Below, in pieces: positions 3,307-58,491 of a DNA stretch of 64,000 nucleotides (positions are counted from its first letter, which is position 1; each line of letters opens with the position of its first letter). The notes beneath the pieces are model-generated. The model had not been told where the DNA came from and did no database searches. It was given only the letters and a program-made list of their open reading frames with translations. The stretch comes from Rhizophagus irregularis (taxonomy: Eukaryota): the NCBI RefSeq assembly GCF_026210795.1, contig NC_089432.1, positions 2,790,001 through 2,854,000 of the forward strand, in the 5' to 3' direction. The position numbers and the translations under genes are program-made.

Positions 3307-4023
3307 TAGGGATGGTTAGGTCGGTCCTGGTCCGGTCCTGGTCCTGGGACCTATAAGTCCTATTGAACGAACCTGCGGACCAGGTCCTGTTAGGACCAGT
3401 CCTGGACCTGGTCCCAGGACCTGGTCCTGACTAAGTTATTTATAGATTTTATGAATTTTAGTAATAATTAAATATTAAAAAAGTGAGTTGCGATATCGGG
3501 ATTCACTTTTTTATATTGATTTTATATAAAAAAAGTGAGTTGCGGTATCGGGATTCACTTTTTTATATTGATTTTATATAAAAAAAGTGAGTTGCGGTAT
3601 CGCGATTCACTTTTTTATATTGATTTTATATAAAAAAAGTGAGTTGCGGTATCGCGAGTCACTTTTTTATATTGATTTTATATAAAAAAAGTGAGTTGCG
3701 GTATCGCGATTCACTTTTTTATATTGATTTTAATATAAAAATGTGAATCGCAATATCGCAACTCATTTTTTATATGATTTTAATAATATAAAAATTGTAT
3801 TGCAATATTGCAGTGCACTTTTTTATAATTTATAATTACTTAAAATCAAATTTACAGCAAATTATACATATATAATTTAAACATATAGGTCTCTTATAAC
3901 CTTATTGGCTAGGACTTTTTAGGACCTGGTCCGCTTCTGGTCCAAAATTTGGACCTAAAGATCTGCAGACCAGGTCCTAGGACCAGGTCTTTAGGTCCAG
4001 GACCTAGGACTTTACCATCCCTA
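3307..4023. mobile_element. Non-autonomous hAT-type TIR element (MITE)
   Basis: Ends TAGGGATGGT...ACCATCCCTA; perfect 8-bp TSD ATTATCAC at 3299-3306 and 4024-4031; subterminal GGACC/GGTCC repeats. Confidence 0.9.
3477..3830. repeat. 52-bp tandem repeat of palindromic units inside the MITE
   Basis: GTGAGTTGC recurs at 3483, 3535, 3587, 3639, 3691, plus 2 degenerate copies; unit core AAAAAAGTGAGTTGCGGTATCGCGATTCACTTTTTT is an imperfect hairpin. Confidence 0.9.
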
Positions 4024-17817: not shown

Positions 17818-19293
17818 TTAAGTTAATCCAAAATTTTTTTCCAATTTAATTTCAAATTTCTTAATAATACCTAATTTAATATATTTATCAATAGCTATTT
17901 TTATATCCTCTATATTTATATTTGATTCAATAATGCAATGATTAGAAGCAAAAATAATCAGTGAAAATGATCTATATGATACATTATGATTTTGCCAGTT
18001 TTTAGAAAATTCCTCCAAGTCATGAAGAAGATAATTTATTTGCATTCTAAAATAACAATCTAAAATTAAAGTATGAAAATATTTTTGTGAATAATTTGCT
18101 AAAATCTTGAATAAGGTTTTACCACTTTGCCAATCCTTATAACAAAGTTCAATAATTTCTAAATATTGACAATTATTTAAAGTTAGTTTCAATGATTTTT
18201 TCTCCCTAATATTAGAGTATAAAATTCTAAGATTTGGACAAAGTTTAGCTAGAGTTAAATTCATTAATAAACTATAGTAGTACATATTAAGTATGTATAA
18301 TTCTGTTAAATTTTTTCCATTAATTTCCAAAAATTTACATACACTGTGTAGCAGCATATCAATGCCAGTGTCAGTTGAAAATATGTAGTAATTGATTCTT
18401 AAAATCTTCAATTGTGAAAAATAAACATACTGTAATTGACCAAAACCAGAATAATCAAAATATAAATCTATATGGAGTTCTTGTAAATTTTTGAACATAG
18501 CTATAAATGATAAGGTTATATCACACCTATATAATGCTAACTTTGTTAATGTTAAAGAATGCTTAATTAACGAAGTGGTTATTTTATCATCATAATTATT
18601 ATAACGCTTAAGATTTACAATTTTTAGATTATTTTGTACAGAAATTAAATCTGTTAACCAATTTGAAATTTGAGATTCAAAAACTATAGTTAATGATTGC
18701 ATATTATGACATAGTTGAGTCATTTGATAAAAAAATTCAGAACAAATATTCGAACCACATTTTAATTCTGTGAGATTTTCTAAATGAATTTTTGCTTCAG
18801 GTAAATAAATAAATTTAATATTTCCTGAATTTGAATGCTTGAAATCCAAAACTTTTAATGATGAAATTTGATTCATAAACATTTTTAATATTTCTTGTGA
18901 TAAGATTTCTAAAACAGTTGATTGCTGATTTTTAAGTAAATACTGAATCATTTCATTAATTTTACAAATTGAAATACTTTTGCAAAATGATGCATAATTA
19001 AACAATGGAGGCTTCCGAACCATAATGGTAATATTAACACCATTCTTAATTAAAAGCTTTTTTGATTCTTTAGGAAGACAACCAATTAAAGTAGTAATAA
19101 TTGATGTTGATATATCACGAGGTTTATCATAAAAGTAAAACTTACAAAACTTCCAAAAATTCCTCCATAAAATTCTAACTGCAATTTCACAACAAAGTTG
19201 ATTAACTAATAGACAAGAATATAAAGTATTTTTATCATCATTTAAATATTCTAATATATCATTAAGACAATCATAAGGAAGTTGACAAGTCAT
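17818..19293 (-). CDS. F-box-like/LRR protein
   Basis: MTCQLPYDCLNDILEYL..LYSCLLVNQLCCEIAVRILW; PLFNYASFCK motif; LRR-like repeats; likely start is the ATG at 19293. Confidence 0.75.
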   Translation of the reverse strand: MTCQLPYDCLNDILEYLNDDKNTLYSCLLVNQLCCEIAVRILWRNFWKFCKFYFYDKPRDISTSIITTLIGCLPKESKKLLIKNGVNITIMVRKPPLFNYASFCKSISICKINEMIQYLLKNQQSTVLEILSQEILKMFMNQISSLKVLDFKHSNSGNIKFIYLPEAKIHLENLTELKCGSNICSEFFYQMTQLCHNMQSLTIVFESQISNWLTDLISVQNNLKIVNLKRYNNYDDKITTSLIKHSLTLTKLALYRCDITLSFIAMFKNLQELHIDLYFDYSGFGQLQYVYFSQLKILRINYYIFSTDTGIDMLLHSVCKFLEINGKNLTELYILNMYYYSLLMNLTLAKLCPNLRILYSNIREKKSLKLTLNNCQYLEIIELCYKDWQSGKTLFKILANYSQKYFHTLILDCYFRMQINYLLHDLEEFSKNWQNHNVSYRSFSLIIFASNHCIIESNINIEDIKIAIDKYIKLGIIKKFEIKLEKNFGLT

Positions 19294-20599
19294 TTTATTT
19301 GTTTTTAATGAAATGTTGAATGATTTAAGGATGATAATTTGTAAATTATTTAAGCAAACCTTCTCCACTCCATTTAAATGGAAATTAGTGTGTAAAAAAT
19401 TTTTCATGTTAGTTCAAAATTACTATTCACTTTATCATATTGCATACAAAATTACTAATAATTTTCCTAAATCGGAGATATTAGTCAAGATAATCAAGAT
19501 GATTCATGATTGATCTTATATAAAATTAGATATACTGACTTTTGGTCTTGAACCAAGATAATTTTTTTTGGAAATACATAATTTTTTTGGATATCGGGAT
19601 AAATACTTTGGTTAAAAAATATCCAGATTGACCCATGATAAATACAATTTTTTTTAAAAAATCTAAATTCAATTTTTAATTTTTGGTTAAATTGATATTA
19701 ATTTGATTTTGTACTATAGTATGTAATTTGTAAAAATGAAACACTTGTCTTTTAATTAAATGGTTCCATGATTTTAAATATCTTATTTATAATTAGAATG
19801 GTTGTGTTGAAACATATATATACTCTTACTTTTGATTAACTAAAATATTTTTAATCTATAAATTTTTTATATAAAGTGATTTTTTCGTTGGCTAAAAATA
19901 GTCTTAATGATTTTTATTGATAATTATTGTGATGTGTAAGTGGCAAAATGAAATTTTATAGCAAATGTACGATATTTTTTGAATAAAGATCATACCACTC
20001 ATTTTTTATGAATTATTCGTAACCATTCTATATAGTATCTATTAAATAATTATTTAACTTTTGAAATTGACAAAATATTTACATCACCAATCCTATTGAA
20101 TCCCTTGTCACATTTTTACTTTATCATTTATTATTAATTTACATTTACTAAATACTTTTTAAATAACTTTAAAGTCGATAACTGTACATATTCAGTGCTA
20201 TTACTAAACCACCCTGAATATGATTTCTTTAAAGTATATATTAAAACAGCAGTGGCAGTGTAATATTCTCTTTTGAGGCTTATATTGAATTTTCACTAAA
20301 AAAAAAGTAATTTTTATATTATAACATAAACGATTTATATATATAATATTAGAAAAAATATTCATAAAAAATTTTATTTTAAAATGAAACTTTACTTATT
20401 GCATTTGTGATATAATTTTTAGCTAAAACTTATTGAAATATAGATCAAAAGCAAAAAGGATAAAAATCAAAGAAATTCTTGTATATAAATTTAATATGAA
20501 AATTAATAATAAAACATCTCTAAACGTTTTTGGGCATTTTTCTGTCGAAAGGTGCTCTTCGTCACTATTCATAATAGCCTTTCCAATCGTTCATCCTCA

Positions 20600-25141: not shown

Positions 25142-26507
25142 TTAAACGATATCTTCAACAATTTTATGAGGATCTAAACCCTCAAATACGATTCTATAAA
25201 CGGTTGTAAATAGAGGAAATCTATCGAGGAGAGAAAAAAATAAGGAATTAAGTAAATTTTTGAATGAAATATATTTTTTATAAAAATATTAAGTTTACTT
25301 ACTCTTTCTCCAATCCTTTTCGATGTAAAACTAAGTAGATTTCTTTTGCAGTAAGCGTTCCTTGTAATTTTTGACCATTGAGAAGTTCTTTCTCCAATTG
25401 TTCAAATGACTAGGAAGTGATTCATATAAGATACGTTAAGATACGTTAGCATACAAATACTAAACTATATAAAAATGCACATATAATATATTATATAACT
25501 ACTAATTACCTTTCCTGTAACAATGAATGCCTCAGCAGCTTTTCTATTTCTACCGCCATAACAAGTTGTAATTACATCAGCAATACCACAGCTTTCAAAG
25601 AAAGTTTCATCCTTGATACCCTTATAAAACATTTTAATATACTTTTTCATCTCCAATAAACCAATTCTAATAATAGCAGCTTTGGTATTTTCACCCAATT
25701 TTAAACCATCAATCATACCAGCACCTATAGCGATAACATTTTTTAATGCACCACATAATTCAACCCCTAAAACATCATCGACTATATTAACCTTAAAATA
25801 TTTTGTTTCAAATAACCTTTTAAATAATTTTCCTTCATGACGATTCTTATATCCAATTGTTGTTTCGGAAAACTTTTCTTGTGCAATTTCATTTGCTAAA
25901 TTTGCACCAGAAAGTGTACAAACCGAAATTTTCAAAGCTTCTTTGATCAAATGTGATATTGGACGAATTCCTGATTCTGTGGTATAAAATCCTTTAACTA
26001 AAGAGATAGCTTTAACTTTTGGATGAACATTTCCTTTTAATTTATCACATACACCATTTACAAACTGAAACAAAAAAAAAATATATTTTTATGTTATAAG
26101 TGAAAGTTCTTCAAAAATATTGTTACACTGAAATAAGTAAATAATAGTACCTGATGAGGAATAACTATTACTAAAATCGTAGCACCTTTGGCAGCTTCCA
26201 CGACATCAGGTACAGCTACAACATTTTCAGGAATACTAACTCCGGGTAAATATTTTACATTTTCATGTTTTTCGTTGATTAGATCAGTTAATTTTCTTTC
26301 GCCGATCATTTCTTCAAAAACCCACATTTTAATTTCATGTTCGAATCCACTCTGTTGAACAACATTTGTTCCTAATATCTTCGCAACCACAGTACCCCTG
26401 TAGAAAGTAGATTTTGATTAGTAACGAACGTTTGTATTACTGTCTAAAGATAATAATATTATATACCAATTTCCACTTCCAATCACAGCGACTTTCTCTT
26501 TAATCAT
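25142..26507 (-). CDS. GPD1: Glycerol-3-phosphate dehydrogenase (NAD+), multi-exon
   Basis: [15 protein letters not shown]ossmann motif, [37 protein letters not shown]; canonical introns. Confidence 0.93.
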
Positions 26508-33164: not shown

Positions 33165-36100
33165 ATGACTCACAGTAATGATAAGGGTAATAATTATATA
33201 TAATATATAGCATATAATTAGAACTCTAAAATTTTTAACAAATTTGCAATGCAATAAAATTAGTTTCCAAAGAATTTGAAGGAAGTAGTACCGAGGAATC
33301 TAAAGGTATATTAAACTAGCTGAAATATTAAATTTTTATTTGTAAATAATTTAAATACTATCAATAATTGTACCTTATATTATATAAAAATTATATTAAA
33401 TAATTTAGCTCGTAAGTTAATAGGTTATATTATAATTGAATAATAATGGAATTACTTAACATTTCTATTACATTTCATATAACTCATTAAATAATTAATA
33501 ATACTATAGTTGGTAAGTTATTAGTTATTTAAATCTTTAGTTTTTGCTTTATTTATTTTACATATTATTCAATTAACTAATTCTTTATTTAATAAATAAC
33601 TATTTAATATTGTATTACAGAAGGTAAGTTAAACTATCATATTTATTTGTTTAATATTTTATATAATTCAACTGATTATATTCTTAATTTAAATAACCAG
33701 ATTGTAAGTGATATTTAATTTGCAGTAAATATTTTTGTAATGTATTTATATCTAACTAATAATTAATTAACAATACTAGGGTGTAAGTTATAAATACATA
33801 TATTTTATATTATTTATATAATTTAAACTAATTAAATTCTTTATTTAAAAAATTATTTTATAGGTGGTATGTTATTTATTTAATTCTATTATTACTGATT
33901 TATATAATAATTACATATAATTTAAACTAACTAAATTCTTTATTTAAAAAATTATTATACAATCCAATATAGAGAGTAAGTTATTTATTTAATTATTTTA
34001 TTAATTATTTATATAATATTTGCATAAAATTTAAACTAACTAATTTTTTTATTTAAAAAATTATTGAATAACAATATAGAGAGTAAGTTATATTTATTTA
34101 ATTCTATTATTACTTATTTATATAATATTTATATATAATTTAAACTAACTAATTTATTTATTTAAAAAATTATTAAACATATAGAGAGTAAGTTATTTAT
34201 TTAACTATATTATTACTTATTCATATAATATTTACATATAATTTAAACTAACTAATTTTTTATTTAAAAAATTATTTTGTAATTTATTTTAGTTAGTAAG
34301 TTATAAGTTATTTATTTAATTTTATTATTACTTATTTATATAATATTTATATATAATTTAAACTAACTAAATTCTTTATTTACATAGTTTGTAAGTTATA
34401 AGTTATTTATTTAATTCTATTATTACTTATTTAACATTTATATATAATTTAGACTAACTAAATTCTTTATTTAAAATATTATTTAATTATATAGGGCGTA
34501 AGTTATTCTATTTTTACTTATTTAAATAATATTTACATATAATTTAAACTAATTAAATTCTTTATTTAAAAAAATTATTTTATAGATGGTATGTTATTTA
34601 TTTTATTCTATTATTACTTATTTATATAATAGTTATATACAATTTAAACTAAATTCTTTATTTAAAAAATTATTTTATAGATGGTATATTATTTATTTAA
34701 TTCTATTATTACATATTTATATAAGATTTACATATAATTTAAACAAATTCTTTATTTAAAAAATTATTTTACAGATGGTATGTTATTTATTTAATTCTAT
34801 TATTACATATTTATATAACATTTACATATAATTTAAACTAACTAAATTCTTTATTTAAAATATTATATAATAATACAGGGTGTAAGTTATTTATTTAATT
34901 TTATTATTACATATTTATATAATATTTACATATAATTTAACTAACAATTCTTTATTTAAAAAAATTATTTTATAGATGGTATGTTAGTTATTTACTTAAT
35001 TTTATTATTACTTATTTATATTATATATACATATTATTTAAAATGACTAAATCCTTTGTTTAAAAAATTATTTTATAGATGGTATGTTATTTATTTAATT
35101 CTATTATTATTACTTATTTATATAATATGTATTACATATACTAATTTAAACTAACTAAACTCTTTATTTAAATAGTTTGTAAGTTATAAGTTATTTATTT
35201 AATTCTATTATTATTTATTAATATAATATTACATATAATTTAAACTAACTAAATTCTTTGTTTAAATAGATTGTAAGTTATAAGTTATTTATTTAATTCT
35301 ATTATTACTATTATTACTTATTTATATAATATTTTATAATTTAAACTAACTAAATTCTTTATTTAAAAAATTATTTTATAGTTGGTATGTTATTTATTTA
35401 ATTCTATTATTATTTGTTTATATAATATTTACATATAATTTAAACTAACTAAATTCTTTATTTAAAAAATTATATAATATAGGGCGTGAGTTATTTATTT
35501 AATTATATAATATTTATATATAATTTAAACTAAATTATTCTTTATTTAAAAATTATTTTATAGTTGGTATGTTATTTATTTAATTCTATTATTATAATAT
35601 TTACATATAATTTAAACTAACAATTCTTTATTTAAAAAATTATTTAATAATATAGGGTGTAAGATATTCTATTATTACTTATTTATATAATATTTACATG
35701 TAATTTAAACTAACTAAATTCTTTATTTAAAAAATTATTTAATAATATAGGGCGTAAGTTATTTATTATTACTTATTTATATAATATTTACATATAATTT
35801 AAACTAACTAAATTCTTTATTTAAAAAAATTATTTTATAGATGGTATGTTATTTATTTAATTCTATTATTACTTATTTAGATAATCTTTAAATGTAATTT
35901 AAACTAACTAATAAACTCTTTATTTAAAAAATTATTTTATAGATGGTATGTTATTTATTTAATTCTATTATTACTTATTTATATAATATTTATATACAAT
36001 TTTAAACTAACTAAATTCTTTATTTAAAAAATTATTTTATAGATGGTATGCTATTTATTTGATTCTATTATTACTTTATTTATATAATATTTATATATAA

Positions 36101-37663
36101 TTTAAACTAACTAAATTCTTTATTTATAAAAATTATTTAATAATGTAGCTCGTAAGCTATTTGTTGTTTCTATTGTTATATTTTATATAGTATTTATTTG
36201 TTGATTGAATTCTTTCATTTAAATTTCTGTTACTTTAGTTGGTAAGTCGTAGGTTATTATTATATATTTTACAAAAACTAATGCCGTATATTATATTAAA
36301 TTTCTTCTTAAATTTAGAGTAAGTGTTGATTTTAATACTGTAACTTTTAATGTAAACTTTAATATAATTACAATTATTCAAATTTATAGATTTGGAAAAA
36401 GTGGAAATATAAATATGGATAATTTTATTTTGAAAAACAAATTAAAATGGATTCCTTATGATAAATTTAAAAATGCTGAATATCTTGATAAAGGAGGATT
36501 TGGTACTATATATAAAGCTAATTGGCTAAATAATAATGGATATAAAGAAGTAATTCTTAAATGTCATAATAATTTAAATGAAAATTTAAATGAGTTTTTA
36601 AATGAAGTATGATAATATATTATTTACTTTTTAGATTAAATATCTAAATTATAATTTATTTATACTAATACATTATTATTTTTTTATAGTGGAAATATCA
36701 CAAAAGTTGCTTAAGTTCAGATAAAATTATTTATTTTTATGGATTTACAAAAGATCCTAATACTTTGAAATATATGGTAGTAATGGATTGTGCAAATAAA
36801 GGTAATTTAAGAGGAAACTTAATGAGAGTAATCAAAAAAAAATGGAGTCAAAAATTATATATGTTATATGAAATTATTTCTGGACTTAATAATATACATG
36901 AACAAAATCTTATTCATTGTGATTTTCATGATGGCAATATTTTAGATCATAATTATGAAGATAATGATAAAATTTATGTTAGTGATTTAGGTTTATGTCG
37001 ACCTGTAAAATCATTTTTGAAAGAGCATAGTATTTATGGTGTATTACCATTTATGGCACCTGAAGTTTTAAGAGGCAAATCTTATACTCCAGCTAGTGAT
37101 ATTTATAGTTTTTCTATGATTATGTGGGAATTTACATCTGGTATACCACCATTTAACGATAAAGCACATGATATCCAACTTAGTTTAAGTATTTGTAAAG
37201 GTGAACGTCCTGAAATTATTGAAGATACTCCACAATGTTATGTAGATTTAATGAAAAGGTGTTGGGATGAAGACTCATTAAATAGGCCATCTTCTAAAGA
37301 AGTTTTAAGTATTATTGAAAATTGGATTTTTCGTTCTTCAGATAAGAAAATTAAAGATATTAATGAAGAATTAAAATACAATATTATGGAATTTATAAAT
37401 GCGCCAATTGGGCATAACAATAATCTTTCTAATGAGTCTCATCCACAGGCATATAATACAAGTCGCTTACTTGGTTTTACTAGTAAAGAATTGAATGAAA
37501 TTCTTGAAAGTAAAGATTCACCAGATTTGGATGATTGTATAGTTTTATTAGGTGTGTAATATAGTATATAAAAAGAATTAATTTGCAAATTATTTATGTG
37601 AGTTAACTTTATTTATTTAATTGTTTAGATACTAAAACAGTGTGTTTTTATAAGAATTTATAG
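33165..37663 (+). CDS. Intact TKL protein kinase whose N-terminus is encoded by 31 micro-exons (36 predicted exons)
   Basis: Exons 33165-33186, 33264-33305, thirty 3-nt exons (33409..36241), a 1-nt exon at 36318, then 36390-36606, 36690-37551, 37629-37663; GGFGTIY, VILK, HCDFHDGN, SDLG and APE all present. Confidence 0.8.
33306..36389 (+). repeat. Tandem array of ~70-110-bp intron units (GTAAGT/GTATGT...ACTAAC...YAG) separated by 3-nt exons
   Basis: 32 GT-AG units; central units near-identical (TAATTTAAACTAACTAAATTCTTTATTTAAAAAATTAT). Confidence 0.9.
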
Positions 37664-38105
37664 TTTTTTTTTAGTGATATTTGATGTCATGCATTTAACA
37701 GAAATTGTTGTTTAGATTTATTTAAACACTAATAAGGCTAGAGTAGTAAAATATCTTACAAGATTCTTAGTTTGTAATTTAAATAATTCCTTTTTTTATA
37801 GCTTATCCAAGTATTAAATATTATATTCTCTTTTATTTTACTTAGAATTATTTAAACACTAAGACTAGAGTAGTAAATATTTTACAAGTTTCTTACTTTG
37901 CAATTTAAATAAATCTTTTTTTTATAACTTTTCCAGTTATTAGATAAATCATCAAAATAATAATATAAGTATAAAAAATCATTATCAATTCATAAAATTG
38001 AAAATTTTTATACTCATTTAAGTAGATAATTGTTTTTAATTTATATTGTCAACCTTTATTTTTAGTATTATTTAAAGAAAATTTCTCACTGGCAGTCATG
38101 TTGTG

Positions 38106-38833: not shown

Positions 38834-40943
38834 TTATTCATTTAATTTATATTTAGCATTTTGATATCCTTGTTCAGCAGATTTTTTAAACAAACAAATT
38901 GCTTGACTTATATCTTTTTTAATTCCCATTCCATCTTTATAAAAAAAAGCAAGATTATATTGAGCCAAATAATTTCCTAAATCTGTAGCCTTTTTATATA
39001 ATTCAAATGATTTCTGATAATCAATATTAGTTCCAATTCCTTTTTTATAACACCATCCTAAATTACATATTCCAAGTAAATTTCCTAAACTTGCTGACAT
39101 TTGAAATAATTCAAATGCTTTTTGATCATTAATAAGAACCCCAATTCCATAAAGATAACAATTTCCTAGATTATAAAGTCCACGTGCACTTTCTAAATTT
39201 GCAGCCTTTTGATAAAATTCAAATGCTTTTAGTTGATTAGCAAAGGTTCCAATTCCTTTTTCATAACAATAACCTAAACTAGTTATTCCAAATGTATTAT
39301 TTAAATTTGAAGACTTTTGATATAATTCAAATGCTTTTTGTTCATCAACATTAATTTCAATTCCAAAATAATTAAATACTCCAAGTAAAAAAATAGAATC
39401 AGAATTTTCCTGATTATTAAGTAACCAATTATAAATTTCTTGTGAGGATACATTATGATTATCAAGATATTTAACAACTTTACATTTTCTCATTTTTATT
39501 TCTATATTTTCAAAAAGAGAAATTATTTCAACAACCATTATTTCAAAATCATTCATGATTAGATCTGATGAAATTGAAGGATCTATTTCATTTATATCAA
39601 TCCTACTAAAATTTTGAATAATTTGAGATATTTGTAAATTATTATTAATTACGTTTTCAGAAATTTCATTATAATCGTTTAATTGAATTTCTGAAATAAT
39701 TGTATTTAATTTCATAACAACCTGATTGATAGTTGGACGATTATCTGGTTCATTATTCCAGCAATCTAAAATATAATAAAATAAACTTTTATAAATATTG
39801 TTATTTTAAAATAATATATAATAATTAAATTTAATTAGTATATTTACCAGTATATATTTTTATGTAATCTTTAGGTGTATTGAGAGTGGGCTTCTCTCTA
39901 AGACCTTGTAATATTTCCATAGCCAAACCAACATCATATGGCTCATTACAAAAAGGTGGACGTCCACTAGAAATTTCCCATAAGAGTATGCCAATACTGT
40001 ATATATCACTCTTTTTGCTTAATGTATATATTTGTAATTGATTATTGCTATCTCTTCTATTAAAAATTTGTGGATCGATATAAGTAACCATTCCGAACAA
40101 TTTTGATTGAACATTAGATAATTCTTCAATCCTTTCTGATAATCCAAAATCAGTCAATTTGATGGTATTCTTATTAACTAATATATTATTTGAGTGCTAT
40201 TATTAAATATAATATGTATTAGATACTATAATCTTGCAGTATAATTTAATATAATATAAATTTAATAAATAACCTACCAAATTACGATGTACGATTTCTT
40301 TATCATGTAAGTATGATATTGCATTAGATAATTGAAATGCCAAATTTAATTTATCATTCCAAGTGAGGTTTTCAAAGTATTCACTTAAATAGTATCGAAG
40401 GGTACCATTGTCGGCATATTCCATCACTAACAAATATCTTTTTGAATCATCACTTTGGATTTCTTTTGAAAGAAAAAAAAATTATTTTAGATTTTTTTTC
40501 ATATGCGTATAATATGTATATATTTTTTAAAAATATTTGTAATATCGCACCTGATGTAATACCATAAAAGCGAATTATATTTTCATGAAAATCCATTTCA
40601 CGATGAAGTTTAAGCTAAAAAATAAATGAAATTATAAATTAGAAACATAATTTATTATAATACTTCATAAGAAATAAATACTAATAATCATATAAATTAC
40701 TTCATTAACAATTTCTTTGGTAATGGTATCAAAATTAAAAAAAAGTTTTAACGCTAAATAATTATGAGAATTATTCCAATTTGCACGATATACTTTTCCA
40801 AATCTTCCAAGACCAATTCCTTGAATATTATTAAAATATTTATAATCATAATATTTAATTTGTTTTTTTACAATAGATTCTTCAATCCAATTAATCCACT
40901 CCTTTGAATTATCAATAAATTTAATTTCAGTGTTATTAGACAT
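38834..40943 (-). CDS. TKL kinase-like domain plus Sel1-like repeats; catalytic HRD reads HRN
   Basis: GLGRFGKVY, ALK, HRNL|HSNN, TDFG; C-terminal LG.CY..GIG...KAFE.Y.KAA repeats; conserved intron positions. Confidence 0.85.
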
Positions 40944-42303
40944 CGTAAATATCAAATTTTTTACTGTGGAAGTTAATTTACGTCAAAAAGGTTAAAAAGA
41001 TTTAAGAAAAAAAAAAAAGAAAAAAAGAAATTTTATTCCGTTTATAGTTAGTAGAACATGAACACATTCCAAAAAAATAAATTTTGTGTAATTTGTTAAG
41101 TCAGCAAGAAAAAAAATTATGAGTAACAACGTCCTACGTCACACAGATCGTTATGGCCTGCATTTGGTTACATTTGAAAATCTGGGACACAGATCGGAAT
41201 TTTCATACAATTTATTCGGCTTAAAGTCATATTTTAATATTCTAGTATTCTTAAAAATTTTAATATTTAATTTTTTTCCAATAAATGTTTTAAAATTCTA
41301 AAAAAAAAAAATATTAAACTTAATTTATCTGTTATAGCGTAAATGCATATCTTCATAATCTTCATAAGAAAGTGATGATTGCCTTGATAAATTTAATTTA
41401 TAAGTCCATTTATGCGGACAGAAAATAAAAGTCATTTGATTAGACAATTTATTAAAAATCTGTCATGTAGCCGGAGTAAAATATCTGATATAAAACAAAA
41501 AAATAAAATAATCAAGTGATATAAAAGTGAATTTGAAATATTAGCAAAAATTTTGATTATTTAAAAGAAAAATGTTGACAATATATTGTTCCAATAGACA
41601 TTTTGTTATAGGATTAAGAGTACAAAGTTTTAATAAAAAAAAAATAACAAAAGAGTAAAAAAAAACTAATGCTCAAATTATGATGATATTGACACAACTG
41701 ATATAATCATAATAGAGATTTTTAATAAACATGTAAAACTTTAAAACTTAAGGTTTAAACATCCCGCGTAAATTTGGTAATTCATTTTTAATTATTATGT
41801 AATTTTTATTTTCTTTCATAAAAAATATATTAATATAATAATTGAATATTCTTTATTTCAAATTTATTCATAAATAAACAATATTTATGCTCAAGTAAAT
41901 AAAAATACCAATTCAGTTTTATTCATTAATTAGGTTTAAATCAGAAATGTAACGGAAAATTGGTTCCAGATTGTCTGAAATTTTTATTTCAAATTTGATT
42001 TAATTTTTACAAACGATTGTTTATGCTTTCATCAGTAAGAATTTTAAAATTATAAATAATTTATACGATAATCTATTCAATTATAACTAAGAATTTTGGA
42101 AGATGTCTCAAATCTAAAAATGATATTAAAGGGCGGTAATGCAGATCAATAAATCGGAAAAAATACGGCCCGGAAACAAATTAAATGATCACCTGGATTG
42201 TGCAATGATCGGAGTAATTTCCGCTTTTGATTTCTCATTATAAATATAAAAAAAAAATTTTATTTTTCTTTTTTTTTAAATACTTATATTACAAAAATAA
42301 CTA

Positions 42304-43854
42304 ATGGAACCCGAATTTAGTAAATTAAATATCTCAGGTGGAAATTCTAATTACAAAAATTGTTCATATTGTAATAATCCCTTTACTGAAGAATTATGGT
42401 GTAAAGAATGTGACCCATTTAGAATAATGGAAGGATGGACCAGCGGAAATTCTGATATTGATAAATTTATAAAAGATACAATGTGTAAGCCGAAAAATTA
42501 TAGTCGTGATTATGATAATTATTCATTTCTTGAATGGGTACCATTTGATAGATTTACAGATATAAAAGAAATTGGTGAAGGTGGATTTTCCAAAGTATAT
42601 TCTGCAACTTGGATTAATGGTAAATCATATTATGACGAAAAAAGTGATGGAAGTTGGAAAAAATTAGAACCTGAATCTATGGAAATTGCTTTGAAAAGGT
42701 TAAATGGATCACAGAATATGTCAGATAAATATTTAAATGAAGTACGTTTTTATACTATTTTGTATCTTATTTAATTTATTTCATTTGGGTGTTTAATAGT
42801 ATTAAATTATTTTATTTTAAATTTATTAAAATATAGCTTAAAATACATTGGGAAATTTCTAACAAAAGTGGATTATCATTTTATGGATTAACTAAAGACC
42901 CAGAAACTAAAGAATTTATGATGATTATAGAATTTGCTAGTAAAGGAAATTTGAGAAATGTTCTTTCAAATAACTTTAGTAACATTATGTGGGAATGTAA
43001 AATTAAATATTTAATGTATATATTAGTTGACTTAAAACAATTACATAAATTAGGATATTGCCATAAAGATTTTCATAGTGGGAATATTTTACAAACTGTT
43101 GTTACTTTTATTTCAGACTTCGGATTATCTGGACCAGCAAATGAACAAAAATCAGATGATAAAGTAGTATATGGAGTAATGCCATATATTGCACCAGAAG
43201 TCTTAAACGGAGAACCATATACATCATCATCCGATATTTATAGTCTAGGTGTAATTATGGCTGAATTATCATCAGGAAAACCACCTTTTTACAATAAAAA
43301 ACATGATTTAAGTTTAGCATTAGCCATATGTAATGGACTCAGACCAGAATTTGGAAAAGGAACTCCTGAATTTTATAAGAAATTAGCTTATAAATGCATG
43401 AGTGCCAATCCAAATGAAAGACCAGCAGCTGAAGAATTAAAAAAAATATTTGGTTTCTGGGATAGTTTTATTACAGGTAGTGAAAATAATAAAGAAAAAT
43501 ACGGTTATAAAGGAAAAGAAATTAAAGCAGCATTTGAAGAAGCTGATAAAGAAATACCAAACATCTCAACTTCGTATGAAAAGAATTCTGATGCTGTATA
43601 TACCAGTAGAGCGTTTACATTTAGCGATTTATTACCAAAACCCGTTAATTCATCCATTATTACTTCATATGTTAATAATGAAGGTATTTTCTATTTTATT
43701 TAAAAATTTTATTTTTACTTGAATAATTATTAATTTTATTATTTCAATAGTTAGTGACTCTCAATTAATCGACTTGGAAGTGTCTAATTCAATACAATTA
43801 AAAGGCACTATAGATATTGACGATGAAAGTAAGATTGATTATTTAGTGAATTAA
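42304..43854 (+). CDS. TKL protein kinase with N-terminal CxxC...CxxC module
   Basis: CSYC..WCKEC, GEGGFSKVY, IALK, HKDFHSGN, SDFG, APE; three predicted exons, frame intact. Confidence 0.85.
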
Positions 43855-45083: not shown

Positions 45084-47570
45084 TTAATCAAATTCAACCC
45101 TATCAAATTTTAACTTTTTAAATTTATCCTCTTTAATGTCGAGCCTATTTTTTATATCATTCAGACTATTGAAGGGGCGTTTTCCTTGTTCAATACGGAT
45201 ATCGTTAAATCCAATATGTTTGAGTGATTCAACAGGTGCTGAATTAAAATATATTTTTCGTTTGCTAAGTAAAAGAATAGAGAATGCATTAGCAGATATT
45301 ATAATAAAAAAAAGGAATTCCAAATTTTGCAAACATACCAGATGCAAATTGTGCTCGACTTGCATATGTATATCCATAAAATTCTTGCATTTTTTCCATA
45401 GATACTAATGCGCTATTTGGTCTATCACTTATAGAAAGGTTGTCTTTCTGATCTGCATTTGTTAAGAATAACAAAACCCAATTTGGGTCAATTTTCTCCA
45501 TATTTTCAGTAACCTTATTACATAAGAAAGTTATTCGTTAACCCAACAATTTTAACGATTTGTATGTATACTTTATATATAAAGCAATGTTGTTACCTTT
45601 TTATACTCATTATCGAATAAATCTTGATTAATGATAAGCTTTGAAGTAGTAGTTAGTTTAGCTTGCAGAGCTAAACAAATTTCAGATTCTGAACTTCCAT
45701 CTTTAAGAAGCACAAAGACATCCCAGGTAGTGCTTCGACCCGGATGAAAACCGTCATCCGGATTACACAAAAAAAAAATCTGGATTATATCTGGATTGAC
45801 CCGGATTTTGAATCCGGATCAGATAATCCGGATAGAAACCGGAAACCGGATTGGATTTACAAATGATCGGCAATAATTCTGGCCAGAATTCATAACGCCG
45901 GCCAGAATTACAAATTGTGTAACATTAAATTTTCATGCCAGCCAATAAAAAATTTTTTGCCCGGTGGCTAAACTATTTTCCCGGTGTCACGTGCGTGATG
46001 TTAATTTTGGCCAGAATTACAAATTTGGCCAAAATTATCCAAGACCACGAAATTTACATAATTCCAATTTCATTAAATACTTTTCTTTAAAACAATTTCA
46101 TATTATTTCAGCATTTCTCAGACTATTGTTTTACATTTCTTTGTAAATTAACTAATTATGAAATTTTAAACAAGATATTTTTATATACAGCTAAAGATTA
46201 CTATAAATAGATGTGTTGGGTTAGTAAGGCAATTTTTTAAGGATTTGTTTCTTCTTTCAAAAATTAAAGAATCATTTGAATCAAATTACATAACACTAGT
46301 TTTAATTTTTAAAAAAAGTTGTTATAATTATATAAATTTATAATATTGAACAATTTTTCATTTTAAAACAATAATTATTATTTTGTTGTAGCAAAAATAA
46401 TATAAAGTTTTTTTTCTTTTGAACATTTGAATGTGAAATCTAAAATTATTTGTTATTTGTTAATGTATAAATTTAAATAAACAAATCTGATACAAACTTC
46501 AATAAATAAATTATAATTGAAAAATCTTCTTAAACTTACTGTATTAAAAAGTTTAATAACAAATATAAATTTAATAAATTTTAATAAAAAAATTGGTATT
46601 AGGCGCAAAAATAATTAGCCATAATATTATTTAGATATAGATCTTTATGGATCAGCAAAATTATTATTAATAAAAAAAAAAATAATAAAAATTTCATCCA
46701 GATTCCGGGTCAAACCGGATATTTTTCATCCGGTTTATAATCCGGATGAAACCCGTGAAAATCCGGATATCCGAAAAAAAAAAATCCGGATCAATCCGGA
46801 TTGATCCGGATACGGGTCGAGGCACTAATCCCAGGGTGCTCCAGCAGCATTAAGAAAGATACAACCAGTGTATTTCTTGGTATCATCAAGTAAATCAAGG
46901 TCGAAATAACCATTTCTCATTTCTGTCAAGTTTACATATTTCGCTTTTTGTTTCTCGTAAGTTTTAGTGGCTAAATTATATTAAATTTGAGTTTGAATTT
47001 GATGCGACATTTAAAAACTAAAACTTAATTACCTGGATATCGATGTAGTAATTTGTACAATTTGATATCTTTAGTTTTAGGTAAGACAACTTCAAAATTC
47101 GGAAATTCATGCGAGAATTCCGCACCCTTTAAAAGTGTCTTCAAATTAATTTTCTCATATCCTAGTAAACGAAAAAGACTGAGGCGCAATGCCAAGAATT
47201 TGGCATTAAAGTCTTCAAAATTCTGCCAATTATTTGGATCATCATATTGTAACATGGGTTTCCAATGCATCATCAACAATTCAGGGTCAGTGGAATATTC
47301 AGCGATTGCATATACCCATAGGTAAGGTAAACGAATAAGGTAGTGTGCTTTTGCCGGAACCAGGTTCACAAATCCCATTGAAACAAGATCTCTATAGGTT
47401 AGAAATTTTCCTAATTCGTGGTCCTCAACTTTCACATTCTCTTTTTTAGCCGCTTCCATTTTACCAACTGGAAGACCCAAAATGGCCTTTGCGAGAGGTA
47501 CTGACAAAGAATTTGAAAAATTATCAAGTTGATATTTATTTACAATCCTATGTTTGACGTGTTCCATAAC
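45084..47570 (-). pseudogene. Crinkler-type C-terminal region (restriction-endonuclease-like fold plus HhH-like tail), 5'-truncated and MITE-disrupted
   Basis: WQNFEDFNAKF, rejoined FLNAAGAPWDVF..CLALQAK, LFLTNA, EFYGYTYASRAQF, RPFNSLNDIKNRL; family assignment by recall, not by search. Confidence 0.6.
45728..46827. mobile_element. 1.1-kb non-autonomous hAT-type element
   Basis: TIR TAGTGCTTCGACCCG / CGGGTCGAGGCACTA; 8-bp TSD ATCCCAGG (45720-45727, 46828-46835); ATCCGGAT subterminal repeats. Confidence 0.92.
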
Positions 47571-50360
47571 TTTTCCGATACCATGGTGGGATGTTAATCA
47601 TTATTGTATAGTTTACAATCAAACGCTAAAATTTAAAACTGATTGTCAAAAATGGTGTTCATATTGTATTATAATTTATACTGGATGTAGGCATTGTTTG
47701 ACAACAAATATTATTTTTGGAATTATAGGTGAATCTCAATGTAAGAAATGCAAAAGAGTATCACTTATTACAATCAAAATGATAAAGATTAAAAAAAAAA
47801 TATCTAAAATTAACACAAATAGCTATAAACAGATTTCCAATTATATGAATAATAATGATAAAAATTCTAATCCACTTGAATTATATAAGTTTATCAAAAA
47901 ACTCGATCTTTTTCCTTTAAAACCATTGATATTCTGGAGTTCATATTCTCAAATTACAAGTTTATTAGGAAATAATGAAAATTCTTTTAAACCAAGTTTA
48001 CCAATTATGTTTATTCCTTTTAATAATAATGAAGATGAATGTCATTATTGTAATAGGAAATACGATAAATTAGATTCATTTGAACCAAAATTTTGTCATT
48101 ATTGTTTACGTTTTCATATTAATTTTATAGCTAAAAATATCAAATATACAATCAAAGACATGTATATATGTGATATTATAAATACATGTAAACATAAACG
48201 ACAAGAATGGTGTGAAATTTGCACTACAATTTTGTTCTTTGATATAATAGTTATAAATTATACAAAGAATAATAGATTTTGTGATTATGAAAATATTATT
48301 GAAAGTAGAAAAGATTGTAAATTATGTGGAAAATTAATTTATGAACAGACTTCAATTGATTCTGAGTATAAACTATGTTCAAATTGCTATAAAATTTCTT
48401 TTGAATGTGTTAAATCAACTTTGATTGAAAAAGCCATTCTAATTCTTTATTTACTATGGTGGGATGCTTATAATCAATGTATAGTTTGTAATAAACTCCT
48501 TGAATTCGAAGGTGATTGTCAAAAATTGTGTTCAAGCTGCTTTATATTTTATATTGGATGTAGATATTGTTTGACAACAAATATTATTTTTGGATATACA
48601 AATCAATCTAAATGTAGTAAATGTAAAAGAATTTTTATTATTGAAATCAGTGGAAATTATATTATTGACAAATTTTTACATTTTACAAATGTTGATAATA
48701 ATGATAAATATTATGAAATAGTTAATTATATTAATAATATTAATAATACCAACAAAAATTCTAATCCATTAAATATATATAGTTTTATTCGTGATAAGTA
48801 TTAGTTATTTACTAATCTAGTAGTATATAAATGGGTTATCATCCGAAGGATGATGGCCCATTTATATACTAAACTAGATCAGTAAATAACTTTTTTATCA
48901 TCCTAGATATACTAATTGGTCCGCCAGTTTATAACTGGCGGAAAAATCCTAAATACCAATTAGTAGCCAGGTGATAAGTTTGATTATCACTCTACAAGAC
49001 CAAAAATAAAATGGGTTTCATATTCACAAATTAAAATTTTTTTAAAAAATAGCAGATGGAGGATTTGGTATTATTTATAAAGCTTTAATTAATGGAAACG
49101 TTGTGACTATAAAAAAAATTTTGGGTTCTCAAGAACCAAATAAATATTTTCTGAATGAGGTAATTAATTTTTAAAATTAATTTTACTTTAAAAAAAAATA
49201 TTTATATAATATACTAATTTGAACTTTAAAATTTTAGTTAAAATCACTTTATCAATTTTATGATGGTAAATTTGAATATATTATTAAATGTCATGGTATC
49301 GCAAAAGATCCTATAACAAAAGAACTTATGTTTATAATGAAATATGCAAATGCATAATTATTTACAAAAGAATTTTGCAGAGATTACCTGGAAGAAAAAA
49401 TTGCATATTTTGTGGCGAATTTCAGATGGGTATTTATAACTTAATTAATAATGATTTTAAAATTATTTAAATAAAATTTTATTAATAACCAATTTTTTGT
49501 TTTAGACTACAAACTATTCATGAAAAAGATTTCGTACATCGAGATTTTCATAGTGGAAATACAGTATATTGATTGAAATAATTGAAAATGATTCATATAA
49601 AATAGATCAATATCTAATTGGAGATTTAGGATTTTCACGACCTGCAAATGACATTCCACAAGATAACATTATATATGGAGTAATGTCTTATATTGCACCA
49701 GAAATATTTAAAGGCATCAAATTTTCTAAATCGTCTGATATTTATTGTATGGTCATGATTATGTGGGAATTGACAACTGGCTGTAAGCCTTTTGCTAATA
49801 TTGAACATGATGTTGGTTTAATTTATAAGATCATTGATGGGAAACGGCCTAATATTACTGACGACACTCCGGACGATTTTACTAATTTAATGAAAAAATG
49901 TTGGAATCCTGATCCTAAAATGAGACCTTCGGCAACGGAAGTTTGTGAATTTTTTAATTCTTGGTCAAATATGGGAATGGATGCCGAATATTTTGATCAA
50001 GCTGAAGAAATAAGATTAGAATTAATAAAATCAAAAATGCTTGGACCAGATTTTAATGAAAAATCTCATCCAAAAGCAATTTATACAAGCAGATCAATAA
50101 CATTTAATACGAATACGAAACCAAGTATGTAAACATTATTTTTTATATAAATTTGGACAATATTTAAAACATTTTAACATTTAATAATTATTATCATCTT
50201 AGATAATAAACTTATTGATGAATCAGTCAACAATAAAGGTATTAAGTTATTTTTTTAATGATAGAATCAGTACGTAAAGGAATTTATTAATTACTTGATT
50301 CTTTTTCTTTGGAATATATTACAAGGGAATATGAGTTTGATATAAATGAAAATTATGAAA
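47570..50360 (+). pseudogene. Cys-rich repeat (multi-CxxC) TKL kinase pseudogene
   Basis: Duplicated WWD..C..C....GCRxCLTTNIIFG..CKKCKR modules, then GGFGIIY, HRDFHSGN, GDLG, APE with frameshifts; no clear start; insertion at 48800-48970. Confidence 0.8.
48800..48970. mobile_element. 171-bp structured insertion with 9-bp TSD and no terminal inverted repeats
   Basis: GTGATAAGT at 48791-48799 and 48971-48979; removal restores RDKFDYHSTRPKIKWVSYSQI; two internal hairpins. Confidence 0.8.
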
Positions 50361-50706: not shown

Positions 50707-52969
50707 TTATTCTTGTAGGTTTTCTAATTTAATTTGAGCATTTTGAAATCCTTGCTTAGCAGATTGTTTATACCAATAAATGGCTTTATTTATATCTTTT
50801 TCAACTCCATTTCCTGATTCATACAATAAGGCAAGATGATACTGAGCATCGTAATTCCCTAAATCAGCTGCTTTTTTATATAATCCAAATGCCTTTTTTA
50901 TATCAACATTAGTTCCAATTCCAAGATTATAATAACATCCTAATAGAGATATTCCGAATAAATATTTCCCTTCTGCTGATTTTTTAGCTAATTCGAAAGC
51001 TTTATCAAAATCTATTTCAACACCTTCTCCAAATTCATACATCAAAGCAAGGTTATATTGAGCTTTTGGATTTTCTAAAATTGTTGCCTTTTGATATAAT
51101 TCAAATGCCTTTTGCATATTGATTTCAGTTCCAATACCACTACAATAACAATACCCTAATAAATTTAATCCACCCAAGAGCCCAATTTCTGCTAATTTTT
51201 TAGATAATTCAAAGGCTTTTTTATAATTTCTATCACAAACTTCTCCATCTTTATACATATAAACAAGTTTTAATTGAGCCATATTGTTTTCTAATACTGC
51301 AGCTTTTTCATAAAGTTCAAGTGCTTTTTCCTTATTAATATCAGTTACAATTCCATGATAATTAAAATATCCAAGTAAATAAATAGAATTTGAACAATCT
51401 TGATTAATTAAAAGCCAATGGTAAATTTCTTGTATACTAATTTTGCAATCATCAATATAACCGAAAGCACTTTCCCTACATACACTTTCTTCTATTCCTT
51501 CATTTATTTCCTTAAAATAAATATTAACAAATTTATCAATTATGATACTTAAATCTTCTTCAAATATGTTTTCGTGAATTTGTTGTATTGTAGGTTCTAT
51601 TTCGATCATATGAGACAATTTTCCATATCCATACAATAAACAATCATTAGTATCCGATCGAATAACATTGCTTGAATTAAATAATTGGGTTGACTTTGTA
51701 ACCATTGCTCTTAATTTATAAATCACTTGTCTCATTGTCGGTCTTTTATTTGGTTCATTATTCCAACATTCTAAAAAATTAAAAAGCAGTGTATTACGTT
51801 ACATAAAAATTAAGATTTTAATATTAAATTGATATTAATGTAAAATTATAAATATAAAATTATATTTACCAGTATATAAATTAGAATAATCAACGGGAGT
51901 ACCTAAAACGTTTGTTTCTCTGTAACCCTGTAAAATTTTCTTAATTAAATTAGCATCATTTGATTCGTCTTCAAATGATGGTCGACCACTTGATATTTCC
52001 CATAGAATCATTCCAAAAGCGTAAACATGGCTCTTTTCATTTAATGAATATGATTGTATTAATTCATTATTGTCATTTAACCTTTTTGGGTCGATATAAA
52101 GAATTTTATCAAATGAACCTGATTGGTTTTCAGAAACTCTTTTGATTCTATTTAATAATGTAAAATTGGCTAATTTGATGGTTTTCTGATGAAAAAAAAT
52201 ATTCCCAGGGTACTAAAAAAAAATAAAATTTTTTAATTAATATTTATTTATTTTAATGAATTTAACGAAATAAATAAATTACCAAATCATGATACGCAAT
52301 TCCTTTATCATGTAAAAATAATATAGCACATGCTAACTGGTACGCCAATTCATATTTGTCCTTCCAAGTAAGATTATTAAAATTTTCTTTCAAATAATCT
52401 CGAAGGGAACCACCGTTAGCATATTCCATTACTAATAAATATTCTTTCATTTGACCATTTTGATTTTCTAAAGGAAATAATAATTATTATAATTTATCAA
52501 ATTAGTAAACATATTTTAAAAAATTTAATCCAAAATCTTTTAATTATTTATAATATTTTATACCTTTATCAGTAATTCCAAAAAAGTTAATTAAATTATT
52601 ATGAAAATTAACTTTACTTTGAAGTTTAAACTAAATTATGAATAAAATATAATTAAAAAATGATAAATTGCTATATAATGTTTTCAATATTAAAATATTA
52701 TAGACCAAGATATAAAATAAACCAAGATAATATTTTATTTATATAATTACCTCATGAATGAGTTCTTCTTTTAAAATGTCATTGTCAATAATATTAAAGG
52801 ACTTTAATACAAAATGTTGTTCCGAATTTTTACAATTTGCACGATAAATTTGGTTACCAATTTTCTCAATATTATAAAAATTTTCATATTTGTAATACTT
52901 AATATTATTTACTAATATAAAATCTTCAACCCAATTAATTAATTCATTTGAATTTTTGGTGGTTTTCAT
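50707..52969 (-). CDS. Pseudokinase (TKL-like) plus Sel1-like repeats
   Basis: Gly-loop lost (KIGNQIYRAN), YHDL|YPGN, DFG replaced by NFT; about 6 Sel1 repeats; same intron layout as paralogs. Confidence 0.8.
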
Positions 52970-58103: not shown

Positions 58104-58491
58104 TTGAGTATGATATATACCTCCGATGGTTGTATAGTAGTATAGTGTAAAAAAACTATACTGTATAAATAAAAGCTATATACCGTATATAAATCGTATA
58201 AATAAAAAATTTTATCAGTCATTTACTAATTGGTGATTTATGTTATACAAACAGTTACTAAGCTGTATAAAAAAATGTAAGCCTGATAAAACAGTTACGG
58301 CACACGTGACCTCATAACTGCGGCACTATCGTGCCGAGTAACTATTAAATACTGTATAGATAAAAAATTATACTGTATGGATAAAAAATTATACTGTATG
58401 GATAAAAAATTATACTGTATAGATAAAAACTATACTGTATAGATTTTTGTCAACTATACTATACAACATCGGAGGTATATATCATACTCAA
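58104..58491. mobile_element. MITE with TA flanks and internal 21-bp tandem repeat
   Basis: TTGAGTATGATATATACCTCCGATG / CATCGGAGGTATATATCATACTCAA; GATAAAAAATTATACTGTAT x4. Confidence 0.85.

What the first reader, a model, noticed from the sequence alone, without database searches (positions are those of the whole stretch)
33306..36389. Thirty consecutive 3-nt micro-exons encode a kinase N-terminus
Seen in sequence: this region looks like an AT satellite, but every unit reads YAG-NNN-GT(A/G)(A/T), typically GTAAGT or GTATGT, with a CTAAC-type branch point in most. Exon start positions: CTC 33409, TTG 33510, AAG 33621, ATT 33701, GGT 33780, GTG 33864, AGA 33973, AGA 34080, AGA 34185, TTA 34293, TTT 34388, GGC 34495, ATG 34586, ATG 34681, ATG 34775, GGT 34879, ATG 34976, ATG 35079, TTT 35176, ATT 35270, TTG 35382, GGC 35483, TTG 35564, GGT 35656, GGC 35751, ATG 35841, ATG 35943, ATG 36043, CTC 36149, TTG 36239. 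All sit in phase 1, so each codon is split across two exons. Joined to exons 33165-33186 and 33264-33305 they read MTHSNDKVSKEFEGSSTEESK-ALEDWCEKKIIWHDDGYDVYFGLGWHDDALE-FGKSGNINMDNFILKNKLKWIPY, with no stop, into an intact TKL kinase. About 3 kb of DNA encodes 31 residues. Isolated micro-exons are known, but I do not recall a run of this length; that novelty claim is unverified. Gene finders would miss it.
Basis: partly seen in the sequence, partly recalled or inferred. Interest (0 to 1): 0.97.

Follow-up and report, generated by a model that had tools for sequence, protein, structure and literature searches.

The report
Single-codon exon array in fungal kinase
In a root-symbiont fungus, a 3-kb AT-rich repeat at the front of a kinase gene consists of 32 short intron-like units separated by thirty 3-base spacers and one 1-base spacer, which are likely spliced together as tiny exons to give the enzyme a variable 31-amino-acid head; related kinase genes carry the same layout.

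Summary
Observation confirmed. 33306-36389 holds 32 GT..YAG introns (71-109 nt) separated by thirty 3-nt exons and one 1-nt exon (36318), which the frame needs. The kinase is identical to a Rhizophagus irregularis protein. It is not a plain satellite: in 24 near-identical units all splice dinucleotides are intact (about 16 of 96 damaged expected) while triplets are 5-8 times more diverse than intron interiors. Five of 12 metagenome loci (58-74% identity) keep the 1-nt exon; four show 3-nt exons on the same intron scaffold, some with new triplets. Triplets travel with their splice-site flanks, not with intron middles, suggesting shuffling by recombination. An RNA-like contig shows this gene spliced at its 3' end, but no read showing joined triplets was seen, so inclusion is inferred. 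[quoted passage not shown] New here: Glomeromycotina, a stand-alone kinase family, split codons, a conserved 1-nt closing exon. One public gene model already chains 21-23 of the triplets, in the wrong phase.

The parts
33165..33186 (+). Coding exon 1 (ATG start, 22 nt, ends in phase 1)
   Evidence: Sequence; a like N-terminus stands in 19 of 368 fetched proteins, most of them kinases of this family
33264..33305 (+). Coding exon 2, acidic (EFEGS-type motif), 42 nt, phase 1 to phase 1
   Evidence: same acidic exon, often with the motif repeated, in P0005, P0008, P0022, P0051, P0055
33306..36389 (+). Array of 32 introns (71-109 nt, median 94; 28 TAG and 4 CAG acceptors) with 30 three-base exons starting at 33409, 33510, 33621, 33701, 33780, 33864, 33973, 34080, 34185, 34293, 34388, 34495, 34586, 34681, 34775, 34879, 34976, 35079, 35176, 35270, 35382, 35483, 35564, 35656, 35751, 35841, 35943, 36043, 36149, 36239, and one 1-nt exon; predicted to code 31 residues
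33306..33782 (+). Five diverged, probably older units at the 5' edge (mean intron identity to the others 0.60-0.76)
33783..36151 (+). Homogeneous core of 24 units (about 95-nt period); intron interior diversity 0.088, exon positions 0.46-0.72, splice dinucleotides invariant
36239..36241 (+). Last 3-nt exon; same triplet before the 1-nt exon in L002, L003 and L005
36318..36318 (+). 1-nt exon (YAG, one base, GTAAGT) that moves phase 1 to phase 2
   Evidence: Needed for the frame; present in L001-L005; its donor is inferred to be used by 10 of 148 public models ending NLE/ILE before the exon
36281..36283 (+). In-frame ATG inside the second-last intron, used by public model P0121; rival start, absent from L001-L005
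36390..36606 (+). Kinase N-lobe exon beginning FGKSGN (phase 2 to phase 0)
   Evidence: a paralog contig of run X3 begins exactly at 36390
36690..37551 (+). Main kinase exon (PF07714 109 bits, PF00069 104 bits)
   Evidence: joint 36606-36690 GT..AG in 7 reads of X24
37629..37663 (+). Likely further 3' exon (acceptor 37629, reading like the LDIKT tail of 34 of 155 homologs); its end is not settled; public model P0001 reads through the donor at 37552 instead
   Evidence: X3 contig identical over 37314-37551 leaves at the GT

Best explanation
The stretch is an array of 32 short GT-AG intron-like units with thirty 3-base and one 1-base spacer in front of a Rhizophagus kinase; the spacers are likely spliced in one after another as exons to give a 31-residue N-terminal segment, the array likely grows and reshuffles by unequal recombination within the near-identical intron middles, and the segment likely serves as a variable recognition or regulatory head of this kinase subfamily. 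Shown: the layout, the open frame, intact splice signals against a decaying background, excess diversity of the triplets, linkage of triplet to its own acceptor tail and donor head but not to the intron middle, the same layout in four to five related loci. Inferred: inclusion of the exons in mRNA (about 0.85; short introns defined one by one make inclusion the default, from general knowledge), recombination as the shuffling force (about 0.7), an adaptive role of the variation (about 0.45). Because every codon is split over two exons, each residue is set by a pair of neighbouring cassettes: the 11 triplet types here can form 28 junction codons covering 19 amino acids, against 8 if read in phase 0. 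The array sits where other Rhizophagus kinases (WTSGN type) carry a continuous Cys-rich module.
For:: 30 spacers of 3 nt, one of 1 nt, none of other lengths to 12; 32 of 32 introns GT..YAG, 71-109 nt, CTRAY in 24; 96 of 96 splice letters intact, about 16 damaged expected; 9 different distances from the last conserved block to the AG, 19 intron lengths among 24 units, yet exon length always 3; diversity 0.46-0.72 in exons against 0.088 in interiors (3 of 87 interior columns reach the lowest exon value); triplet distance tracks acceptor tail (r 0.58, p 0.0002) and donor head (r 0.40, p 0.0004), not the intron middle (r -0.08, p 0.78); 28 codons, 19 residues. L001-L005 keep the 1-nt exon, L002-L005 show 1, 2, 1 and 4 three-base exons, three triplets not in the window, five introns 90-97% alike to the window's core consensus while the kinase exon is 82-85% alike; exons 1-2 match N-termini of paralogous kinases, fixing phase 1; three contigs of X3 leave the window exactly at splice sites (36390, 36690, 37551), the last with 0 differences in 238 nt. 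Cys-rich module before WTSGN in other kinases (one search read by eye).
Against: No read or contig showing joined triplets was seen; reads were laid only on 36150-37600 and the letters beyond 36390 were not displayed. Only 4 of 620 (X23) and 11 of 747 (X24) laid reads were 99% alike, so those runs report on paralogs or another allele. None of the N-termini printed shows this segment in phase 1. Skipping all 30 triplets but keeping the 1-nt exon also leaves the frame open. The no-stop test is weak (0.24 and 0.07). Units share ancestry, so the p values overstate independence; identities in AT-rich DNA run high; the mid-intron anchor was out of register in some units. L004 has a damaged unit, L005 is open only at its second acceptor, L003's array starts abruptly after unrelated kinase-like DNA. 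High triplet diversity can arise from old cassette lineages plus intron homogenisation without positive selection. No function was tested.
Confidence: 0.58

Rival explanations
1. The exons are spliced in, but the array is a neutral by-product: duplications of an intron-plus-triplet unit are tolerated because each adds one residue to a loose linker; selection only guards splice sites, length 3 and absence of stops.
For: Low-complexity acidic neighbour exon with variable repeat number; the kinase family is greatly expanded and often methylated (PMC8647823 passages); 8 of 30 triplets are the same; linkage pattern fits passive unequal crossing-over too.
Against: Exon positions 5-8 times more diverse than the intron interior; layout and scaffold kept in kinases at 58-72% identity; a like design is tied to nonself-recognition genes in truffle.
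Confidence: 0.22
2. The splice sites are real but most 3-nt exons are skipped in any one transcript (heavy alternative or stepwise splicing), so the 31-residue form is rare and the gene makes a ladder of shorter heads, down to the form with the 1-nt exon alone.
For: The 1-nt-only form is open; 29 of 30 single skips and 452 of 465 block skips stay open; alternative splicing is what reviews report for Tuber nank.
Against: Strong donors (GTAAGT 17, GTATGT 9 of 32) and short introns favour inclusion (general knowledge); no RNA view either way. Partial skipping would add to, not replace, the best explanation.
Confidence: 0.12
3. The array is a silent satellite or relic; the kinase starts at the ATG at 36281 or at the Met inside the N-lobe exon, as public models P0121 and P0001 have it.
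For: TRF calls a 95-nt repeat, 18.9 copies; those two models exist; no joined read seen.
Against: Splice letters intact against expected decay; the 36281 ATG is absent from 5 of 5 related loci; exons 1-2 conserved with the kinase in paralogs; raw reads have zero depth at 36248-36345 and an X3 paralog contig leaves at the acceptor 36390.
Confidence: 0.08

Closest known systems
[quoted passage not shown] 2012; paper not held; seen only through passages of PMC4986451, PMC13449251, PMC10197012, PMC3689799)
   Same: Tens of 3-nt exons, expanded gene family, mycorrhizal fungus, proposed diversification device
   Different: Host here is a stand-alone kinase, not an NLR; array at the N-terminus; Glomeromycotina rather than Ascomycota; closing 1-nt exon; alternative splicing reported there, untested here. 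Phase and intron likeness in Tuber could not be compared.
Schistosoma mansoni micro-exon genes (MEGs; PMC10526429, abstract)
   Same: Runs of short exons giving variable proteins
   Different: MEG exons 3-81 bp, introns up to 5 kb, secreted products; here uniform 3-nt exons, 71-109-nt near-identical introns, fused to a kinase
Single-nucleotide exons of plant APC11 and VPS55 (PMC4674806 abstract; PMC8831610 passages)
   Same: A conserved, frame-setting 1-nt exon near the N-terminus, missed by annotation
   Different: Isolated there; here it closes a run of 30 three-base exons
Repeat shuffling in fungal NLR sensor domains and exon shuffling in brown-algal receptors (PMC10197012 and PMC13449251 passages)
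   Same: Near-identical repeats reshuffled by recombination around a few variable codons
   Different: There the repeat is coding; here the conserved scaffold is intron and only the variable triplet reaches the protein
Expanded protein kinase family of Rhizophagus irregularis (2,533 members by PMC10234402 passage; high-copy class in PMC8647823)
   Same: The kinase is 100% identical over 353 residues to P0001 (EXX60025.1, GBC22031.1)
   Different: Public models start at an internal Met, use intron sequence, or chain triplets in the wrong phase

Membership tests
Spliceosomal micro-exons | Each exon flanked by GT..YAG introns of spliceable size with branch point | tested here: met
   32 of 32 GT..YAG, 71-109 nt, CTRAY in 24 of 32
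Spliceosomal micro-exons | Splice signals and exon length conserved beyond background and in relatives | tested here: met
Spliceosomal micro-exons | Exons joined in mRNA | tested here: inconclusive
Tuber nank-type codon-sized exon array | Tens of 3-nt exons in one gene | tested here: met
   30; definition from review passages
Tuber nank-type codon-sized exon array | Member of an expanded gene family | tested here: met
   150 hits at E<=1e-10; the 120 listed are all Rhizophagus
Tuber nank-type codon-sized exon array | NACHT and ankyrin domains in the host gene | tested here: not met
   Only kinase families on the main exon, none on the N-lobe exon
Tuber nank-type codon-sized exon array | Alternative splicing of the mini-exons | tested here: inconclusive
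   No RNA view of the array; most skips would stay in frame and open
Protein kinase, Tyr/Ser-Thr (TKL-like) | PF07714 above curated cut-off | tested here: met
   109 bits against 23.1; PF00069 103.9. The label TKL is recalled, not from a call
Protein kinase, Tyr/Ser-Thr (TKL-like) | Catalytic Lys, catalytic-loop Asp/Asn, Mg-binding Asp, APE present | tested here: met
   VILK, HCDFHDGN, DLG, APE; first Gly of the Gly-rich loop is replaced, as in many family members
Protein kinase, Tyr/Ser-Thr (TKL-like) | Phosphotransfer activity | not testable with these tools
   Needs an assay
Schistosome MEG | Long introns (to 5 kb) between exons of 3-81 bp | tested here: not met
   Introns 71-109 nt against abstract
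Schistosome MEG | Secreted product | not tested
   No signal-peptide prediction run; the head is acidic and polar
Introner-like elements (recalled definition) | Near-identical introns dispersed over unrelated genes | tested here: inconclusive
   All 22 copies of the core motif in the window lie in the array; elsewhere seen only in this kinase subfamily, but loci were found by kinase search and no genome was held
Ordinary satellite | Even decay along the unit | tested here: not met
   Splice letters invariant, triplets hypervariable

The most novel reading that the evidence does not exclude
A whole subfamily of Glomeromycotina kinases carries a recombining 'codon cassette' device: each split codon is packed in a shared 95-nt intron scaffold, exchanged within and between genes and further varied by exon skipping, so that a clonal symbiont can write a hypervariable sensor peptide residue by residue; with the truffle genes and the HET, RING and LRR cases noted elsewhere in this scan it would be a recurrent eukaryotic diversity generator hidden as satellite DNA.
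Probability: 0.3. Interest if true: 0.88.

Novelty: new variant of a known kind. Interest (0 to 1): 0.7.

Why it matters
If the exons are used, a model symbiont's spliceosome joins 31 consecutive exons of 1-3 nt, and many members of its largest gene family are annotated with wrong N-termini (homolog models upstream of FGKSGN disagree wildly). It would offer a concrete, testable source of protein variation in a fungus long regarded as clonal (PMC8647823 abstract start), extend a design known in print from one truffle family to another fungal subphylum and another protein class, and show that some 'AT satellites' are coding arrays.

Tried and rejected
No whole genome is held for the window, so no genome-wide count of arrays. 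Run search listed no holder on record as RNA: no evidence either way. Reads could be laid only on 36150-37600, which leaves the joining of the triplets open; loose ends at 36390 were among 143 rows not shown. Three protein searches and one representative search gave no recognisably transcript-derived N-terminus. The intron motif had 0 matches in viral contigs and genome contigs, as expected for a fungus. Seven of 12 metagenome loci (L006-L012, more distant kinases) show no array in the DNA held. The sigma-70 scan is irrelevant to a fungus. No-stop test: weak. Phase-0 reading (as in P0122) rejected: it needs a start unrelated to exons 1-2 and loses the N-lobe. Intron retention rejected as a coding option: 0 of 32 retained introns leave the frame open. 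No structure was predicted for the spliced head. Earlier-finding look-ups by sequence and place gave nothing. Literature searches without a description of this array in Glomeromycotina, judged by titles and abstract starts; 'microexon' occurs 0 times in the main text of PMC10234402. Subscription papers and supplements (gene tables of the long-read annotation) were not seen and could bear on this.
Full report
Setting. The window is AT-rich fungal DNA with several kinase and Sel1-repeat genes. The kinase behind the array is 100% identical over 353 residues to P0001, a Rhizophagus irregularis DAOM 197198 protein, whose public model starts at a Met inside the N-lobe exon. No whole genome was held.

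Observation. All 30 coordinates are correct. Counting YAG-N(k)-GT with common donors in 33306-36389 gives 30 for k=3, 1 for k=1 and 0 for k=0, 2, 4-12; 1000 dinucleotide shuffles give mean 0.21 and at most 3. The single k=1 case, at 36318, matters: without it the frame closes at residue 59, with it the model is open. So there are 32 introns of 71-109 nt, all GT..YAG, with CTAAC in 19 and CTRAY in 24. The triplets are 41% G+C against 12% for the region. Outside the array the window has no second run, and all 22 copies of the intron core motif lie inside it.

Not a plain satellite. TRF reports a 95-nt repeat, and a repeat copies whatever motif it has, so I tested decay inside the 24 homogeneous units. 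Interior columns lose 9-10% of A/T cells and 24% of C cells; 16 of 81 A/T columns and 0 of 6 C columns are fully intact. At those rates about 16 of the 96 AG/GT letters should be damaged (my arithmetic, C rate used for G); none is. The distance from the last conserved block to the AG takes 9 values and intron length 19 values among 24 units, while the exon is always 3 nt. Diversity is 0.088 in intron interiors and 0.67, 0.46, 0.72 at the three exon positions. Units share ancestry, so these are not independent trials.

How the array changes. Triplet similarity tracks the 11 nt before the acceptor (r 0.58, p 0.0002) and the donor head (r 0.40, p 0.0004) but not a 22-nt stretch of the intron middle (r -0.08, p 0.78; the anchor was out of register in a few units). 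I infer cassettes of acceptor tail, triplet and donor that move as units, with exchange in the shared middle. The five 5' units and the last unit are diverged from the core, as expected at array edges. Since all exons are in phase 1, each residue is set by two neighbours: the 11 triplet types allow 28 junction codons for 19 amino acids (2 stops); 13 amino acids are used in the 31 residues, against 8 in a phase-0 reading. 29 of 30 single skips and 452 of 465 block skips would stay open.

Relatives. A metagenome scan gave 12 loci. The five closest (58-74% identity) all have a 1-nt exon before the N-lobe exon; L002, L003, L004 and L005 also show 1, 2, 1 and 4 three-base exons before their contigs end or break, with three triplets absent from the window; L001 begins too close to show any. 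Five of their introns are 90-97% alike to the window's core consensus, the three before the 1-nt exon 78-86%, and the N-lobe exons of L002-L005 82-85% (aligned columns only, AT-rich). Against: L004 has one damaged unit, L005 is open only at its second acceptor, L003's array follows unrelated kinase-like DNA. The other seven loci are more distant kinases without an array in the DNA held. The organisms behind the loci are not known. Among public proteins, exons 1-2 match the N-terminus of 19 of 368 fetched sequences, which fixes phase 1. Upstream of the N-lobe exon the models disagree: of 148 with a recognisable exon start, 20 begin at it, 10 end in NLE/ILE (what intron sequence ending at the 1-nt exon's donor gives), 30 end in S/C/G/R then K (what a donor shifted by four bases gives), 8 read through the acceptor, 80 are other (the readings are my inference, their DNA was not seen). 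P0122, a model of this very gene, chains 21-23 triplets in phase 0 and drops the N-lobe exon. In WTSGN-type kinases, such as the one at 42301-43703, the same position holds a continuous Cys-rich module (one search read by eye).

RNA. Reads were laid on 36150-37600 only. Raw runs X23 and X24 gave 620 and 747 reads, 4 and 11 of them 99% alike; at 36594 all 9 and all 33 reads differ from the window, so these are paralogs or another allele. They have no depth at 36248-36345, begin in the bin holding 36390, and show the joint 36606-36690 (7 reads of X24). Of 8 listed contigs of X3 (82 laid; RNA status is the tool's guess), three leave the window exactly at splice sites with letters left over: at 36390 (paralog, 5 differences in 80, 140 unseen letters upstream), at 36690, and at 37551 (0 differences in 238 nt, then a GT). 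The last points to transcription and splicing of this gene and to a further exon at 37629 resembling the tail of 34 of 155 homologs. One X18 contig runs unspliced over 36152-36475 and behaves as DNA. No joined triplets were displayed; inclusion stays inferred.

Mechanism. Shown: layout, frame, selection-like conservation of splice sites, hypervariable triplets, cassette linkage, recurrence in relatives. Inferred: serial splicing by intron definition (general knowledge), reshuffling by unequal recombination, and a variable recognition or regulatory head. Neutral growth in a loose linker (0.22), predominant skipping (0.12) and a silent relic with an internal start (0.08; the ATG at 36281 is absent from 5 of 5 related loci) are the rivals.

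What is known. One-base exons are known in plants (PMC4674806 abstract; PMC8831610 passages); schistosome MEGs differ in intron size and product (PMC10526429 abstract). Eight literature searches and passages of PMC10234402 and PMC8647823 showed no description in Glomeromycotina; supplements and subscription papers were not seen. It works like the truffle arrays but is not a nank gene.

Verdict. Real feature, very likely real exons, new variant of a known kind. Interest 0.70.

Noticed in passing
window 37552-37663: The public model P0001 reads through a GT donor at 37552; an X3 contig leaves there and an acceptor at 37629 gives the family's usual tail, so the annotated C-terminus is probably wrong.
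   Followed up: partly
window 33409-36241: Weaker GTATG/GTATA donors follow only exons ending in G (11 of 14, against 0 of 16 others), as if the exon's last base compensates; may only reflect one cassette lineage.
   Followed up: partly
window 38834-40196 (-), 50707-52212 (-), 55749-57108 (+), 59458-60953 (+): Four kinase-plus-Sel1-repeat genes cluster beside the array gene.
   Followed up: no
window 42301-43703 (+): WTSGN-type kinase with a Cys-rich N-terminal module and no micro-exon array; a natural control.
   Followed up: partly
window 164-1747 (-), 17818-19413 (-), 47533-48804 (+): Long open frames of 527, 531 and 423 codons without a Pfam match.
   Followed up: no
window 25465-26088 (-), 9982-10911 (+), 49554-50132 (+): Glycerol-3-phosphate dehydrogenase exon, a weak BACK-domain match, and a kinase piece.
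   Followed up: no
window 3472-3827, 11656-11885, 37712-37946, 58349-58444: Other tandem repeats: 52 nt x 6.8; 39/75 nt in a G+C-rich patch with open frames; 126 nt x 1.8 behind the kinase; 21 nt x 4.6.
   Followed up: no
window 5524, 28385, 29733 (+), 63545 (-): Isolated YAG-NNN-GT sites; may be chance or lone micro-exons.
   Followed up: no
L004 130-165: A partial duplication leaves 36 nt, a multiple of three, between an intact acceptor and an intact donor: a cassette caught mid-change or a misassembly.
   Followed up: partly
window 36152-36475: X18 holds a slightly different allele (3 other letters, 2 gaps); the gaps listed in this range, at 36176 and 36307, fall in introns.
   Followed up: partly
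   Followed up: partly
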